A program made the position numbers. 64,000 nucleotides of DNA from Raja brachyura. Its lineage: Eukaryota. The stretch is taken from positions 89,156,001 through 89,220,000 of the forward strand of contig OY740784.1 in the NCBI GenBank assembly GCA_963514005.1, read 5' to 3'. Shown here piece after piece: positions 18,701-24,700 of the stretch (positions are counted from its first letter, which is position 1; each line of letters opens with the position of its first letter).

Positions 18701-21700
18701 GCGTTGCTCATAATAATCCAAGGGCTGACAAATCAATGTACAACAATTGAAACAAGGAACTGCAGATGATGGTATACAAAAAAAAACACATAATGCTGGA
18801 GTAACTCAGTATGTCAGGCAGTATCTCTGATGAACATGGATACATGATGTTTTGGGTCGGGACCCTTCTTCAGACTCATGTACAAGTGTTCTTCTGGATT
18901 TCAACATCTACAGTCTCTTTTGTCTGCAATTTTGCAAATTGTTGCACTGGAAATCGTGTGAAATGGATTCCCATATTGATTTTTCACATCTTCCTTTCCC
19001 TTCCAGCTGGAATATTCACTCTGCAATGTCCCATGGAGTTTGAAGAAATCTCAGTTCACTCAGCAACGGTCGTGTTGTCTCGTGATAGAAGTAATATGAC
19101 AGGAACGCTCTGGTGCTTAACTTAGCTGTTGCACGAGTCACCATAACTGTGAGGCTGTTATTTTCCTATACCATGGAACTATTTACCTAGAAACAGTAAC
19201 AGATGAGATCATCATTGCAATTATTATTGCAGGTTCTCTTTCAGCTGGAATATCAATTTTTCTTCCTGATTCCCCCCATGCACAGGTTTTTGAAGACAGG
19301 AAGTATTCCATCCTCATACGACTGGGCAAAAACAGAACATGCATGAAAATCTCAGCAAGTCAGGCATTATCTCACTGAGTCATAGAATCGCATAGCACAG
19401 AAATAGGCCCTTTGGTCCAACGTTAGACTTTAGAGATACTGTGTGGAAACAGGCCATTCGGCCCACTGAGTCAGCGCCACCCAGCGATCACCCCATTCAC
19501 CAACACTATCCTGCACACTTGGGACAATTTTACAACTTACTAAAGCTAATTAACCTACAAACCTGTAATTCGTTGCTGGTTTCTTCCTTGTGTAGGAAGA
19601 AACCGGAACAACCGGAGAAAACCCATGTAGTCACAGGGAGAGCATACAAACTCCGTATACTCAGCACCCATCATCGGGATTGAACCCGGATCTCTGGCGC
19701 TGAAAAGCAGCAATTCTACAGCTGCACCACTGGGCCACCCTGGCTAAGCTAAATACATTTTATAACTTGTTAAAGAAGCAACTGCAGATGCTGGAAAATT
19801 GAGGCTACACAAAATGCTGGAGAAACTCAGCGGGTGCAACAGCATCTATGGAGCGAAGGAGATAGGCAATGTTTCGGACCAAAACTCTTCTTCAGACTGA
19901 TGGCCAAATTGGAGAGGCCAGGACTTTACTTTGCTAGATGATGATTGGATTAAGTGTTGAGCCTTGTCTGGGTTTCTTGAATATCTAAGCACATGTTGCG
20001 ATGTTTGCTTCTGGGTGGTGCAGTGGGTGCAGCAGCATCTATGGAGCGAAGGAGATAGGCAACATTTCGGGCCAAAACCCTTCTTCAGACTGATGGGGGG
20101 TGGGGGGAGGTGGGGGGAAGAAAGGAAAAAGGAGGAGGAGGAGCCCGAGGCTGAGGGAGAGGTAGGAAGGGGAGGAGACAGCAAGGGTTAACAGAATTTA
20201 GAGAATTCAATTCAATTCAATTCAATCTTTAATTGTCATTGTGCAGTGTACAATTCAGAGACAACAAAATGCAGTTAGCATCTCCCCAGAAGAGCGAACT
20301 TAGAATAATGAACGGTAAAATATATATATATGTACAAACAGTATCAGTAGTGCAATTATACTGGGGGAAGGAGTGTCCGGGGGGGTGATTGGCAATCACC
20401 GAGGTGCAGAGTTAAGTATTGTAACAGCTGCAGGGAAGAAGCTGTTCCTGAACCTGTTGGTCCGGTAGCACCTCCCGGATAGGAGGAGGGTAAACAGTCT
20501 GTGGCTGGGGTGAGACCAGTCCTTGACGATGCTGCGCGCCCTTCGCAGATATCGCTTGCTTTGGACAGACTCAATGGAGGGGAGTGAGCAACCGGTGATG
20601 CGTTGGGCAGTTTTCACCACCCTCTGCAGTGCTTTCTGGTCGGAGACAGAGCAGTTGCCATACCATACTGTGATACAGTTGGTAAGGATGCTCTCGATGG
20701 TGCAGCGGTAGATGTTCGCCAGAATCTGAGGAGACAGGTGGACCTTCTTTAGTCTCCCCAAGAAGAAGAGACGCTGGTGAGCCTTCTTGACCAGTGTTGA
20801 GGTATTGTGGGTCCAAGAGAGGTCATCGGAACTGTTGACCCCCAGAAACCTGAAGCTGGAAACACGTTCCACCTCCGTCCCGTTAATATGGATGGGGGTG
20901 TGTGTGCAGCCCCTAGACCTTCTGTAGTCCACAATGAGCTCCTTGGTCTTCTTGGAGTTAAGGGCCAGGTTGTTGTCGGCGCACCATGCTGCCAGGAGCT
21001 GGACCTCCTCCCTACAGGCCGACTCATCGTTGTCGCTGATGAGGCCAATCACCGTTGTATCATCTGCATACTTGATGATGGTGTTAGAACCATGTTCAGG
21101 TGTGCAGTCGTAGGTGAAGAGGGAGTAGAGGAGGGGGCTCAGTACACAGCCCTGTGGAACGCCAGTGTTCAGGGTGATGGTTGAAGAGGTGTGGTTGTCC
21201 AACCTAACAGACTGTGGTCTGTTAGTCAGGAAGTCCAGTATCCAGTTGCCGAGGGAGGTGTAGATGCCCAGGTCGCCGCGTTTGGTGATCAATTTTGAGG
21301 GGATAATGGTGTTAAATGCTGAGCTAAAGTCAATGAACAGCATTCTCACATAGGTGTCTCTGTTATCGAGGTGAGAGAGGGCGGAGTGAAGTGCCGTTGA
21401 GATGGCATCCTCCATACTCCTATTCTTGCGGTAGGCAAACTGATAGGGGTCCAGTGTGGGAGGTAGGCAGCCTTTCAGGTGTGCCAGGACCAGCCTCTCG
21501 AAGCACTTGGTGATGATGGGATTAAGTGCAACTGGGCGGAAGTCGTTGACGCTCACCGCAGTGGAGCATTTTGGCACCGGCACAATGGAGGTGGTTTTAA
21601 GGCACATGGGGACAACTGCTTGGGCAAGTGACAGATTGAAAATGTCAGTCCAGACGTCTGTCAGCTGTGCAGCACAGGTCCTGAGGACGCACCCGGGGAT

Positions 21701-24700
21701 GCCGTCAGGGCCAGCAGCCTTATGTGCATTAACCAAACTCAGTGCTAGATACACGTCGTAGGAGGTGAATGTGAGGGGCTGGTGATCAACAGGGAGCATA
21801 GCCTTGATGGCCATCTCTTGGTTGTCCCTGTCAAAGCGGCCATAAAAGTGGTTAAGCTCCTCAAGGAAGGATGAGTCGCTGGATGTGGGGGTGGTGTTGG
21901 TGGGTCTGAAGTCCGTGATGGCCTGGATGCCTTGCCACATGCTTCGGGGGTCGGAGTTGTTGTTGAAGTGCTCCTCAATCCTAAGCTTGTATCTATGCTT
22001 GGCCATCTTGATGCCCCTCTTCAGGTTAGCCCTGGATGAAATGTAGGCTCGAGCATCGCCTGAACTGAAAGCGGTGTCCCGTGCTTTCAGCAGTAGCCTG
22101 ACCTCGCTCTTCATCCATGGCTTCAATGTTCATGCCAAGAGGATACAGACTCCCCAAGCGGAATATGAGGTGCTGTTCTTCCAATTTGCGGTGTTGCTCA
22201 CTCTGCTCATTTTATAACTTGGCTAGTTCCATTTGCCTGCATTTGGCCCATCTANNNNNNNNNNNNNNNNNNNNNNNNNNNNNNNNNNNNNNNNNNNNNN
22301 NNNNNNNNNNNNNNNNNNNNNNNNNNNNNNNNNNNNNNNNNNNNNNNNNNNNNNNNNNNNNNNNNNNNNNNNNNNNNNNNNNNNNNNNNNNNNNNNNNNN
22401 NNNNNNNNNNNNNNNNNNNNNNNNNNNNNNNNNNNNNNNNTCTGGTTGATTCCTATTTTCTTCCAAATGCTAGGCCACAACCTTCCCATTTTCACACATT
22501 CTACTCACATTTTCCTGTTGTGGTGATAAACATCTTCCCATCGCATTCTCACCTATATTTCCGAACTTTTCAATTGTTTAAACTTTTAAAAACAGCCTGA
22601 AAACTCACCCATTTCGGAAAGAAAACATGAGTGACATCACAATGCACTCGCAAGTCAGGACGGGGCAATCCAGCACTCACGTGCCTGTCGCTGTCGGCGC
22701 CCCACACCCAGTGGGGAGGGTGGTGCTGGAGCTAGAGTGAGGGCCGAGCCCGGGGCTTGGGGTGGGGCTGTTACCGGGGTGAAAATGAAAGCCGCCGCTG
22801 GAACCAAGGACAAGCCTGGGTCCGTGGTCAGGGACGAGCCCAGAGGTGAAGTCGTAGCCTACACGATAGCCCAGGCGGCGGCCGAACTGACGGCTGGAGT
22901 CTACAGCCAGGGCCGGGCTGAGTACGAAAACCATGACCTGGGTGGGTCCGAGGGCAGGGAATGGAAGTGAAGGGAGGAGGATGAGGGAAATGAGGAGGAG
23001 GGAGATGGGGTGGAGAGTGGAGTGGTAGAGGGAGATGGGGGGGATGTGGAGGATGGAGATGTGGAAGGGTGGGGGAGGGAGATTCCCCCTCTCTATCTAC
23101 CCTCACTCCCACCCTCTCTACCCCCATCTCTACTCCCCAATCGGACACTTCCAATCAGCACCGCCATTCAATATGATCCAAAATCAGTACCCCGTTCCTG
23201 CTTTCTCCTCATATCCCTTGATTCAGTTAGCCCTAAGAGCTACTGTACATCTAACTCTGTCTTGAAAACACCCAATGAATTGGCCTCTACTGCCTTCTGT
23301 GGCTGAAAATTCCACTGATTCACAACTCACTATGTGAAAATGTTTTTCCACATCGCAATCCTAAACCCCTTATTCTTACACTGTGATCCCTGGTTCTTGA
23401 CCCCCCCCCCCAATATTGGGAAAAAATTTCCTGCATCTCGCCTGTCCAATCCCTTAAGAATTTTACATATTTCTATAAGATATTTTTTGGCCTGTGGGAT
23501 TTATCGATCTTTGTCCACCTTAATATAATGCTAGCACTTCCTCTTTTGTAATTCAGATATGATCCAACACATTTTTTTTAGATTCCTCAAGGGATTATCT
23601 TGATCACAGCTGTCTTCACCTGACATATGCTTCCTTTTTTTCTGATCAGAGACTCAATACCTTGTCAACCAAGATTCATAATCCTGTCAGCCTTGTCCTT
23701 AACTCCAACAGGAACTGACATCCCCTTTCTTCCACAGATCCCAACCCCTCCTGCCCATTTTTTCTTCTACCGTGAACTAAATTACGTCTCTCTCTTTCCT
23801 AGTCCTGATAAAGTGTCACAGACCCGAAACCATGACAGTTTTTTGTTTTCACAGATGCTGCCTGACCTGTTGAGCATTTTCAGGACACTGAAAATCAGAG
23901 AGCTCAAAAATATCCCCACCCCTATGCCATTGGAGTCAACACCCCAATACCATTCTGAAGCAATACTCAGGTGTCAGAAGTGCTGTCTTTGGAGTGAGTT
24001 GACAAATTAAGATCCCATTAACTTTCATGGAACTGAAGAAGTTATGGCACTTGATAAAAACAACAAGAGAATTATCCTGTCTACTGTTCGATTTATCCCT
24101 CACTCAATTATTTTTTGGCGGGCTGGCATCAATGGTTAGTTGATAGATGGTGCAGAATCAACGTGCCAGGCTTGTTTCTGTGCTAGTTCTCTCTGACTCT
24201 ATTACAGATAATAAACACGGTTAAGGAAGATTTCACCATCTTAAAAGAGTAAAGTCAGCCGCAGTTTCTTTTAACTATTAATTGTTGTTTCTTTGATACT
24301 GATGGGTGATTTCCTGTAGCAAATTTAATCTAATCATAATCTAATTTTCAAAGGCATCATACTTCCTGTGCAGAAATTCTCCTCCCGTTCCTTCAAATAA
24401 AGTAAGTGACAAGAGCTTAACATAGAGTTTTGAGTTTAAGACAGTGCCCTTTTGGCACAATTTACAAATTTACCAAACAGGAAATTAGAAATGCGTGCAA
24501 CAAAGGTAAAACTGTTATAATGGGTGACTTCAATCTACATATAGATTGGGTTAATCAAATTGGCATGGGTGCTGAGGAAGAGGATTTATTGGAATGTATG
24601 TGAGATAGTTTTCTAAACCAACATGCAGAGGAACCAATGAGAGAGCAGGCTATTCTAGACTGGGTATTGAGTAATGAGGAAGGGTTAGCTGGTGGTCTTG

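What the first reader, a model, noticed from the sequence alone, without database searches (positions are those of the whole stretch)
19770..22207. A Penelope insertion that captured ~110 bp from another Penelope insertion site 20 kb away
Seen: the insertion is bounded by a perfect 14-bp TSD. Between its two terminal repeats, 19901-20011 is the near-identical reverse complement of 39574-39683. At the 39.6-kb site, 39574-39660 lies outside that element's own TSD-bounded insert (TSD 39647-39660 / 39782-39796), so it looks like host flank, and 39661-39683 is that insert's junction. The 19.9-kb copy also has the AGTAAAG form of the TSD seen in the right-hand copy. Inference: the two insertions are mechanistically linked, by reverse-transcriptase template jumping onto a local read-through transcript or DNA, or by one concerted event at two nearby sites. 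The 19.8-kb pLTR extends ~30 nt beyond the end of the 39.7-kb copy, so simple copying of one locus does not fully explain it.
Basis: partly seen in the sequence, partly recalled or inferred. Interest (0 to 1): 0.75.

Follow-up and report, generated by a model that had tools for sequence, protein, structure and literature searches.

The report
Penelope retrotransposon copy carrying borrowed neighbouring DNA
A truncated Penelope-like retrotransposon in a skate-like genome carries, between two copies of its end repeat, about 108 bases copied from beside an older Penelope fragment 20 kb away; this is a real but already documented kind of copying mishap.

Summary
Window 19770-22207 is one insertion bounded by an exact 14-bp target-site duplication (TSD). 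Positions 19904-20011 copy 39574-39680 in reverse complement, with 3 differences in about 110 nt.

- The element lies on the minus strand.
- About 1.9 kb of it is a nested, 5'-truncated LINE.
- The Penelope part is only the last 28 codons of the ORF, a C-rich 3' region, a repeat unit cut at position 76 (A), a 9-nt stuttered filler, the borrowed piece, and a complete unit (B).
- The "30-nt extension" is the known optional Penelope "tail" (PMC11167929). The 39.7-kb fragment lacks it, so unit B's 3' end did not come from that locus.

Best explanation: a multi-template chimeric insertion. The cDNA of unit B paired with the older homologous fragment at 39.7 kb, was extended through its junction into host flank, then jumped to a second Penelope RNA.

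Host DNA held between Penelope end repeats (PMC3846280) and SDSA-like (synthesis-dependent strand annealing) chimeric L1 insertions (PMC8087252) are both in print.

Genome-wide copy number of the borrowed piece could not be tested, because no skate genome was available. Interest is moderate: a new member of a known kind.

The parts
19756..19769 (.). Left copy of the 14-bp TSD of the 19.8-kb insertion
   Evidence: Exact match to 22208-22221. There are 2 matches in the window against 0.06 expected.
19770..19800 (-). [quoted passage not shown]
   Evidence: Present in 12 of 27 unit hits and absent in 12. Absent from the 39.7-kb unit. The tail concept comes from PMC11167929 and PMC8557442.
19801..19903 (-). 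Unit B, positions 1-103 of the Penelope end repeat (pLTR part holding a decayed minimal hammerhead core)
   Evidence: BLAST family of 27 hits. 90.3% identity to 39681-39783. Shares CA at 33-34, G73, a 1-nt deletion at 89 and G97 with the 39.7-kb unit. Its hammerhead core is hit at 19895 but helix II is decayed to 1 bp.
19904..19923 (-). Copy of the 20-nt junction filler of the 39.7-kb insertion
   Evidence: Identical to 39661-39680. Also matches 40029-40046.
19924..19938 (-). Copy of the left TSD of the 39.7-kb insertion, in the undeleted 15-nt form
   Evidence: Pattern search: 0 mismatches here, 1 at 39782-39796 and 2 at 39647-39661.
19939..20011 (-). Copy of 73 nt of host flank 39574-39646
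   Evidence: 2 substitutions in 73 nt. It is the only other copy in the window.
20012..20020 (-). 9-nt filler (element sense CACCACCCA) that imperfectly re-copies the adjacent CACCCA of unit A
   Evidence: Read. Its interpretation as a stutter at a template switch is inferred.
20021..20096 (-). Unit A, positions 1-76 only, of a different sublineage from unit B
   Evidence: 92.1% identity to unit B over 76 nt. Shares TG at 33-34 and A73 with the copy at 4150-4252. Intact hammerhead core with a 4-bp helix II.
20097..20204 (-). Last codons and stop of the Penelope ORF, followed by the C-rich 3' region that precedes the unit
   Evidence: 69% identity over 118 nt to 62816-62929, which is likewise followed by a unit at 62932-63062.
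20205..22120 (-). Nested 5'-truncated LINE: RT ORF 20399-22129 and an (ATTGA)n tail at about 20205-20226
   Evidence: Pfam RVT_1 at E 3.8e-32. The two Penelope pieces on either side are contiguous in the uninterrupted copy at 32167-32264.
22121..22207 (-). 5'-truncated start of the Penelope copy: the last 28 codons of the endonuclease end of the ORF
   Evidence: 89% identity to the C-terminus of a Leucoraja erinacea protein. 50% identity to residues 419-446 of a whale-shark protein that carries RVT_1 and GIY-YIG.
22208..22221 (.). Right copy of the 14-bp TSD
39574..39646 (+). Donor: host flank to the left of the older Penelope fragment
   Evidence: Lies outside that fragment's TSD pair. Unique in the window apart from the 19.9-kb copy.
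39647..39660 (.). Left TSD of the older insertion, now 1 nt shorter
39661..39680 (+). 20-nt filler at the 5' junction of the older insertion
   Evidence: 39660-39683 matches 40026-40049 at 23 of 24 positions. The chance expectation is about 3e-8.
39681..39781 (+). Older, tail-less solo unit (positions 1-101/103)
   Evidence: Hammerhead core with a 4-bp helix II.
39782..39796 (.). Right TSD of the older insertion
40026..40049 (+). Probable template of the 20-nt filler, 366 bp downstream on the same strand, in DNA without other copies in the window

Best explanation
The 19.8-kb insertion is one chimeric Penelope-like (PLE) retrotransposition event built from at least three templates.

Shown:
- One TSD pair encloses, in element sense (minus strand): the ORF end (later split by a LINE), a C-rich 3' region, unit A (positions 1-76), a 9-nt filler, 108 nt identical in order to the 39.6-kb locus (flank, TSD, junction), and unit B (positions 1-133, with tail).

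Inferred steps:
1. Reverse transcription started at the 'tailed' start site of a normal PLE RNA. It copied unit B to about position 1, which is where the inverted pairs in the window also join.
2. The free 3' end of this cDNA paired with the best homologous unit nearby, the older tail-less fragment at 39681-39781. It was extended on that locus through the fragment's 20-nt junction and TSD into 73 nt of host flank. This step resembles SDSA. Chromosomal DNA is the more likely template, but a nascent + strand transcript is not excluded.
3. After a short stutter, synthesis moved to a second PLE RNA of another sublineage at unit position 76. It ran through the 3' region into the ORF end.
4. The cDNA was joined to the other target end, giving the 14-bp TSD.
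5. A LINE later inserted into the ORF end.

The older 39.7-kb insertion shows the same habit on a smaller scale. Its 5' junction carries 20 nt templated from 366 bp away, with 1-nt and 3-nt microhomologies.
For: - The TSD pair is exact and unique in the window.
- The 211-nt alignment is colinear.
- The 39.7-kb fragment has its own TSD pair, so the shared 88 nt is flank there.
- The 19.9-kb copy keeps the undeleted TSD form.
- The tail in unit B is absent at 39.78 kb, so unit B's 3' end came from another template.
- The unit part differs at 10 of 103 positions and the borrowed part at 3 of 110 (Fisher p = 0.044). This is expected if unit B comes from an RNA and only the 108 nt come from the locus.
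- Units A and B carry different sublineage markers, and A's markers are shared with the copy at 4150.
- A 9-nt filler that re-copies neighbouring bases sits at the A boundary.
- The 39.7-kb unit is the best-scoring non-self partner of unit B in the window.
- The head-to-head pair at 4059-4251 joins at unit position about 3-4 and has a 14-bp TSD.
- Precedents exist: host DNA between PLE end repeats within TSDs (PMC3846280), and a chimeric L1 with flank taken from a homologous L1 230 kb away, explained as SDSA-like (PMC8087252).
Against: - Copy number of the borrowed 73-nt flank in the whole genome is unknown. If it is multi-copy, locality means nothing.
- The Fisher test is marginal. Four of the 39.7-kb unit's five private changes form two clusters (5/7 and 45/47), and position 23 is a CpG difference that may not be its own change. 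Counted as mutational events, about 8 in the unit against 3 in the borrowed part, the contrast weakens (rough estimate p about 0.1, not computed in a call).
- Unit B and the 39.7-kb unit share four derived characters. This equally fits unit B positions 1-103 being copied from the locus.
- If the 39.7-kb unit already had its private changes at positions 5 and 7, the invading 3' end would have had mismatches 1-3 nt from its tip.
- Nothing here separates a DNA template from an RNA template.
- No other of the 8 unit copies examined had a local filler.
- That cDNAs commonly end at position 1 is an inference from few copies.
Confidence: 0.5

Rival explanations
1. The borrowed piece is not unique host DNA. 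Flank, junction and unit together form a multi-copy composite: a non-autonomous element or subfamily born at a locus like 39.6 kb. The 19.8-kb structure is then an ordinary PLE partial tandem of two RNAs, one from that composite family, and the 20-kb proximity is coincidence.
For: - PLE partial tandems are the rule (PMC8557442).
- Sequences framed by end repeats can be mobilised in trans (PMC3846280).
- Unit copies are very dense, with 27 hits in 64 kb, so coincidences of neighbourhood are easier.
- Unit B has a tail that the 39.7-kb locus lacks. This fits a tailed source elsewhere.
Against: - In the window the flank has only the two copies, and none of the other 25 unit hits is joined to it or to the junction.
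- The 39.6-kb copy sits in its original insertion site with both TSD copies. Any other source would have to be a duplicate of this very locus.
- For a unique source, a donor within 20 kb is very unlikely by chance (rough estimate, about 1e-5 for a genome of gigabase size).
Confidence: 0.2
2. Post-insertion DNA repair. A normal 5'-truncated PLE copy with a single unit sat at 19.8 kb. A later double-strand break inside that unit was repaired by ectopic synthesis on the homologous 39.7-kb fragment, running on into its flank, and closed by end joining with a 9-nt filler.
For: - It produces the same order: unit 1-76, filler, flank and junction, then unit.
- Unit B shares derived characters with the 39.7-kb unit as far as position 97.
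- The filler looks like microhomology-mediated joining.
Against: - The invading end would have kept only the tail and at most a few bases of homology beyond position 97-100. This is too little for homologous invasion, yet the copy is exactly colinear.
- Unit B carries none of the five private changes of the 39.7-kb unit.
- The copied unit part is more diverged than the copied flank.
Confidence: 0.12
3. Read-through RNA as the template (5'-transduction-like). A + strand host transcript starting near 39574 and running through the 39.7-kb fragment was reverse-transcribed by the PLE enzyme and joined to PLE RNAs by template jumps.
For: - The borrowed piece is in the sense orientation needed.
- A nascent transcript would explain the locality.
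Against: - The 39.7-kb fragment lacks the tail and everything 3' of the start sites, which the enzyme needs in vitro (PMC11167929). Such an RNA is therefore a poor initiator and could serve only as an internal acceptor.
- Template jumps usually land on RNA 3' ends, not at an internal homologous position.
- No gene or transcript evidence exists in the window. Among the 148 of 190 ORFs scanned, the only matches at or above Pfam's cut-off were RT fragments.
Confidence: 0.13
4. Assembly artefact: reads from the two repeat-bearing loci were mis-joined near the gap at 22255-22440.
For: - PLE tandem and inverted structures are known to trouble assemblies (PMC8557442).
- A gap lies 34 nt beyond the right TSD.
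- One of the three differences is a homopolymer length change.
Against: - The two copies differ by two substitutions as well.
- The spacer is bracketed by two units of different sublineage.
- The whole insertion, including both TSD copies, lies in ungapped sequence, 2.2 kb from the gap.
Confidence: 0.03

Closest known systems
Host DNA captured between Penelope end repeats (pLTRs) in Adineta vaga: the Pen1_Av spacer, and non-coding sequences between solo pLTRs within TSDs (Arkhipova, Yushenova, Rodriguez 2013, PMC3846280; passages read)
   Same: The anatomy matches: the body of the element, then an unrelated spacer, then a 3'-terminal end repeat, all inside one TSD pair. It is the same element class.
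   Different: Here the spacer is only 108 nt and the donor locus is identified. The donor lies 20 kb away in cis and directly adjoins an older homologous PLE fragment, which points to a homology-guided switch. In A. vaga the spacers are 0.9-1.5 kb, and the passages I read name no donor.
Chimeric L1 insertions made by retrotransposition plus an SDSA-like step (Gilbert et al. 2005 Mol Cell Biol, not held, known only from the reference list of PMC8087252; the CDKL5 case in Hiatt et al. 2021, PMC8087252, passages read)
   Same: The 3' part comes from an active element RNA. The 5'-ward part includes non-element flank copied from beside a homologous element in cis (230 kb away there, 20 kb here). 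The insertion is bounded by a TSD.
   Different: The element class differs: a PLE with a GIY-YIG endonuclease and internal initiation, not L1. Here synthesis returned to a further element RNA after the borrowed piece, so the flank is internal. In the L1 case the flank lies at the 5' end.
The Penelope 'tail' and internal initiation of reverse transcription (Frangieh et al. 2024, PMC11167929; abstract and main text read)
   Same: There are two classes of 3' ends about 30 nt apart: 12 and 12 of 27 hits. The hammerhead core lies about 90-125 nt upstream of the ends, a spacing similar to the anole element.
   Different: That work is biochemical and on an anole element. The start sites of the skate family are inferred here only from copy ends.
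L1 5'/3' transduction by read-through transcription (recalled; 3' transduction is mentioned in PMC8087252)
   Same: Flank of a source element is carried to a new site.
   Different: In a transduction the flank sits at the end of the new copy and is contiguous with a complete copy of the source. Here the flank is internal, and the new copy has a tail that the supposed source lacks.

Membership tests
Penelope-like elements (endonuclease-containing, canonical) | [quoted passage not shown] | tested here: met
   This copy keeps only the last 28 codons. They match the C-terminus of a skate protein at 89%, and residues 419-446 of a whale-shark protein at 50%. That protein has GIY-YIG at 355-432 (23.2 bits, cut-off 22.6) and RVT_1 at 1-121, which is below its cut-off. 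No GIY-YIG was found among the 148 of 190 window ORFs scanned. The feature is therefore met for the family by homology, not for this copy as a working gene.
Penelope-like elements (endonuclease-containing, canonical) | Pseudo-LTRs: partial tandem and/or inverted 5'-truncated copies | tested here: met
   Direct units A and B. A head-to-head pair at 4059-4154/4156-4251 with 96-nt arms, and further inverted pairs at 33.4 and 30.9 kb.
Penelope-like elements (endonuclease-containing, canonical) | Optional 30-40 bp tail at one end | tested here: met
   Of 27 unit hits, 12 end at positions 92-107, 12 at 123-133 and 3 elsewhere. The pair at 4 kb has the tail on one arm only.
Penelope-like elements (endonuclease-containing, canonical) | Minimal hammerhead ribozyme motif in the end repeat | tested here: met
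   A core pattern was searched: CUGANGA, one extra base, a G...C helix II, then GAAA. It gave 9 hits, all in unit copies. Eight have a 4-bp helix II, against 0 hits in each of 100 Markov simulations. These features are the ones listed in PMC4209133. Rfam found no hammerhead at gathering score or at E up to 10. Unit B's own motif is decayed. No cleavage was tested.
Penelope-like elements (endonuclease-containing, canonical) | Short TSDs and frequent 5' truncation | tested here: met
   TSDs of 14, 14/15 and 14 bp at three insertions. The 19.8-kb copy starts inside the ORF end.
PLE capture of host DNA between end repeats (PMC3846280) | Sequence unrelated to the element lies between two end-repeat copies inside one TSD pair | tested here: met
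   19904-20011 lies between units A and B within TSD 19756-19769/22208-22221.
PLE capture of host DNA between end repeats (PMC3846280) | The captured sequence is host DNA, not part of the element family | tested here: inconclusive
   It lies outside the TSD pair of the 39.7-kb fragment and is otherwise unique in the 64-kb window. Genome-wide copy number could not be tested.
SDSA-like chimeric retrotransposon insertion (L1 precedent, PMC8087252) | The 3' part derives from an element RNA, not from the donor locus | tested here: met
   The 31-nt tail of unit B has no counterpart at 39782 onward.
SDSA-like chimeric retrotransposon insertion (L1 precedent, PMC8087252) | Element sequence next to the borrowed flank is closer to the donor's element copy than to the active lineage | tested here: inconclusive
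   Unit B shares four derived characters with the 39.7-kb unit but none of its five private changes, and differs from it at 10 of 103 positions.
Read-through transduction | The transduced flank is terminal and contiguous with a full copy of the source element's end | tested here: not met
   The flank is internal, between units A and B, and the new copy has a tail that the source lacks.

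The most novel reading that the evidence does not exclude
In this skate PLE family, cDNAs that reach the 5' end of the end-repeat RNA may be routinely finished by priming on nearby chromosomal DNA or nascent RNA. Penelope integration would then be a regular, local shuffler of host sequence. The window holds two nested examples that draw on the same 480-bp neighbourhood: 20 nt from 366 bp away, and 108 nt from 20 kb away. 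Old PLE fragments would act as homologous landing pads that export their flanks to new insertions in cis.
Probability: 0.15. Interest if true: 0.6.

Novelty: new member of a known kind. Interest (0 to 1): 0.4.

Why it matters
How Penelope-like elements finish integration and build their odd tandem and inverted ends is still poorly known. The only biochemical study I read covers initiation alone (PMC11167929). A natural insertion whose three templates can be told apart gives a concrete picture of the late steps. In it the donor of the foreign piece sits 20 kb away beside a homologous fragment. The picture is a cDNA end that searches by homology, copies past the homology, and jumps again. If a genome-wide scan finds more such cases, PLE-rich genomes such as sharks, skates and many fishes would have a measurable source of short local sequence duplication. 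As a single locus it is an instructive example, not a new principle.

Tried and rejected
- **Rfam.** No hammerhead family at gathering scores or at E up to 10. The only notable hits were sub-threshold microRNA models on the inverted PLE pairs at 4.1 and 33.4 kb, which I take for hairpin artefacts.
- **ARAGORN** on 19300-19800 found no tRNA-like gene.
- **Pfam** on 148 of 190 ORFs of at least 75 aa. It found RVT_1 matches (six above the cut-off, one below) and one sub-threshold lipase match. There was no GIY-YIG and no clear host gene. The 42 remaining ORFs were not sent: 38 lie beyond 50.4 kb and 4 overlap the LINE ORF at 19.8-22.0 kb.
It was repeated with the natural 61-aa frame, region 1-40.
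- **Local fillers at the 5' side of 8 other unit copies:** none found.
- **TSD scan of 11 other copies or pairs:** one convincing TSD, at the 4-kb pair, and one 8-mer.
- **'Concerted two-site event'** rejected, because each insertion has its own direct TSD pair.
- **Plain 5' or 3' transduction** rejected (see the membership test).
- **Gilbert et al. 2005** could not be read.
- **Paper searches** for PLE with template switching, chimeras, transduction or template jumping, and for the skate with Penelope. They found no description of a PLE capture with an identified local donor. These four searches are the whole basis for saying I did not find it in print.

Full report
**What the window is.** The 64-kb window is repeat-rich vertebrate DNA with 43.5% G+C and three N runs: 22255-22440, 53510-53693 and 54406-54647. 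I did not touch the N runs. The window is not human. The only protein match of the element's ORF end is to Leucoraja erinacea, the little skate, and further relatives are from sharks. Among the 148 of 190 ORFs of at least 75 aa that I scanned, the only matches at or above Pfam's cut-off were reverse-transcriptase fragments.

**The observation.** The 14-mer CATTTTATAACTTG occurs exactly twice, at 19756-19769 and 22208-22221, against 0.06 expected. BLAST aligns 19801-20011 with 39783-39574 on the opposite strand: 211 nt at 93.8%. The alignment separates into two parts.
- The non-repeat part, 39574-39683, has 3 differences.
- The repeat-unit part has 10 differences in about 103 nt (Fisher p = 0.044).

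The 39.7-kb insert has its own TSD, at 39647-39660 and 39782-39796. The 19.9-kb copy carries the complete 15-mer. Such a pair by chance has an expectation of about 6e-6. The left flank 38800-39660 has no other copy in the window apart from the 86 nt at 20011-19926.

**Anatomy of the 19.8-kb insertion.** The element reads on the minus strand.
- From 22207 down to 22121 it encodes the last 28 residues of an ORF.
- Then comes a nested LINE. It is a 577-aa frame at 20399-22129 with RVT_1 at E 3.8e-32 and no endonuclease part, so it is 5'-truncated. It ends in an (ATTGA)n tail at about 20205-20226.
- The Penelope sequence resumes with the last codons, a stop, and a C-rich stretch (20204-20097).
- The two Penelope pieces are contiguous in an uninterrupted, decayed copy at 32167-32264, so the LINE is a secondary insertion. 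I searched the upstream ORF piece only as it stands in the window. The step of joining the two pieces across the LINE was left out.
- The C-rich stretch resembles 62816-62929, which is likewise followed by a unit at 62932-63062.
- After it come unit A (20096-20021, unit positions 1-76) and a 9-nt filler (20020-20012).
- Then comes the borrowed 108 nt (20011-19904): 73 nt of flank, the 15-nt TSD copy and the 20-nt junction.
- Last is unit B (19903-19770, positions 1-133).
- So both repeats sit at the 3' end of a 5'-truncated copy. They are not at its two termini.

**Is it Penelope?**
- The 28 residues match the C-terminus of a skate protein at 89%. That protein's upstream stretch gives a sub-threshold GIY-YIG match. 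Its N-terminal RT part looked LINE-like to me by eye (no call tested this), so that gene model may be a chimera.
- Searching that C-terminal region found three shark proteins. One has GIY-YIG above the Pfam cut-off and an N-terminal RVT_1 below it. The window's 28 residues align to its residues 419-446.
- The unit family has 27 BLAST hits in the window and occurs in direct and head-to-head arrangements.
- One head-to-head pair is bounded by a 14-bp TSD with one mismatch.
- The family has two classes of 3' ends about 30 nt apart: 12 hits ending at positions 92-107, 12 at 123-133 and 3 elsewhere.
- Rfam finds no hammerhead. A pattern for the minimal Penelope hammerhead core hits 9 times, always in units. 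Eight hits have a 4-bp helix II, against none in 100 simulated sequences.
- That core has an extra base after position 9, a G10.1-C11.1 pair, and ACGU after GAAA in the best-kept copies (three of the nine show GAAACG within the pattern). These are the hallmarks listed by Cervera and de la Pena (PMC4209133, passages).
- Together these features meet the published description of PLE insertions (PMC8557442, passages).

**The '30-nt extension'.** Frangieh et al. (PMC11167929; abstract and main text read; supplements not seen) showed that a PLE enzyme starts reverse transcription at two adjacent internal sites. The optional genomic 'tail' is the stretch between them. Unit B is a tailed copy and the 39.7-kb unit is a tail-less one. 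Since the right TSD of the 39.7-kb insert abuts unit position 101-103, that locus never had a tail. The 3' end of unit B must therefore come from another template.

**Where unit B comes from.** In the seven-sequence alignment:
- Unit B and the 39.7-kb unit share CA at 33-34, G73, a 1-nt deletion at 89 and G97.
- Unit A shares TG at 33-34 and A73 with the copy at 4150-4252. Units A and B therefore derive from different sublineages, that is, from different templates within one insertion.
- The 39.7-kb unit has five private changes (positions 5, 7, 23, 45, 47) that unit B lacks.
- This pattern, together with the higher divergence of the unit part, fits best if unit B was copied from an RNA of the same sublineage as the older fragment, and only the 108 nt were copied from the locus.
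- The case is not closed. Four of the private changes form two clusters and the fifth is a CpG difference, so they may be few mutational events. A copy of positions 1-103 from the locus followed by decay is not excluded.

**The older insertion has a borrowed piece too.** Positions 39660-39683 match 40026-40049 at 23 of 24 positions on the same strand, 366 bp downstream. The chance expectation is about 3e-8. The matched DNA has no other copy in the window. The match overlaps the TSD by 1 nt and the unit by 3 nt, as a microhomology-primed templated filler would. The alternative is that the 20-mer belongs to a PLE subfamily's sequence upstream of the unit. Only a genome search can settle this. 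None of the other 25 unit hits has it.

**Mechanism.** I take the 19.8-kb insertion for a multi-template chimera made during integration.
1. Reverse transcription starts at the tailed site and copies unit B to about position 1.
2. The cDNA end pairs with the older homologous fragment, which is the best-scoring partner of unit B in the window. It is extended through the junction and TSD into 73 nt of flank.
3. There is a short stutter, the 9-nt filler that re-copies CACCCA.
4. Synthesis continues on a second PLE RNA from unit position 76 into the ORF end.
5. The product is joined to the target with a 14-bp TSD.
6. A LINE inserts later.

Steps 1-4 are inferred from the anatomy. The order 'older fragment first' is shown by the copied TSD and junction. 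DNA against RNA as the template in step 2 is open.

The rivals are a multi-copy composite subfamily, post-insertion ectopic repair, a read-through transcript as template, and misassembly. They are weighed in their own sections. A concerted two-site event is unnecessary, because each insertion has an intact direct TSD pair.

**What is known.**
- Arkhipova et al. (PMC3846280; passages) describe rotifer PLEs whose 3'-terminal end repeat is separated from the body by captured host DNA. They also describe non-coding sequences captured between solo end repeats within TSDs, and they invoke read-through transcripts and template jumps.
- Hiatt et al. (PMC8087252; passages) describe a chimeric L1 whose 5' part and adjoining non-L1 flank come from an L1 230 kb away. 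They ascribe it to retrotransposition plus an SDSA-like step, citing Gilbert et al. 2005. I could not read that paper.
- A 2026 preprint relates vertebrate retrozymes to PLE end repeats (abstract only).
- My searches found no PLE case with an identified local donor beside a homologous fragment.
- I file the finding as a new member of a known kind.

**What stayed unchecked.**
- The decisive test is the copy number of 39574-39646 in the whole assembly. It could not be run.
- Orthologous loci, long reads and expression data were likewise out of reach.
- Supplementary files of the papers were closed. Figures S1-S2 of PMC11167929 (genomic tail ends) and the supplements of PMC4209133 (hammerhead families) may bear on the tail and ribozyme statements.

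Noticed in passing
window 20399-22129 (-): The nested LINE ORF matches Pfam ALKBH8_N (E 5e-12, residues 439-480) just after its RT domain. This looks like a LINE-derived segment captured in that Pfam model rather than a host-gene relationship.
   Followed up: no
window 4059-4251 and 33412-33566: Head-to-head Penelope unit pairs form long hairpins. They draw sub-threshold Rfam microRNA hits (mir-559 at 63.7 bits against a gathering score of 95, also mir-722 and others). These are likely false microRNA calls, or at most TE-derived hairpins.
   Followed up: partly
window 4013-4026 / 4252-4265: The inverted Penelope pair at 4 kb is one insertion with a 14-bp TSD (1 mismatch) and a tail on one arm only. 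It is a textbook PLE inverted end-repeat structure.
   Followed up: partly
window 6020-6060, 44669-44708, 34908-34945, 27822-27854, 1811-1846: A short tandem motif (period about 8, CTATGTTT-like) recurs at several places, twice just upstream of Penelope units. It could be a preferred target or part of another repeat family.
   Followed up: no
window 40117-40284, also 1957-2131, 17528-17698, 7717-7864: A second abundant repeat family lies 320 bp to the right of the 39.7-kb insertion, with about 79% identity among copies. It looks like the 3' end of a LINE or SINE.
   Followed up: no
window 22972-23140: A hairpin-like region just after the N gap draws many weak Rfam microRNA-model hits on both strands (best is mir-671 at 34 bits against a gathering score of 65). 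It is probably another inverted repeat.
   Followed up: no
proteins P0001 and P0005: Two annotated gene models carry Penelope endonuclease-like tails: a skate 'uncharacterized protein', and a Rhinoraja 'neuromedin-U receptor 1' with GPCR Pfam domains. This suggests TE read-through in the gene models.
   Followed up: no
window 32167-32955: A decayed Penelope copy has about 600 nt between the ORF stop (about 32250) and its unit (32881-32955), much longer than the 108 nt at 19.8 kb. Parts of this 3' region recur upstream of the units at 4895 and 43647, which points to subfamilies with different 3' regions.
   Followed up: partly
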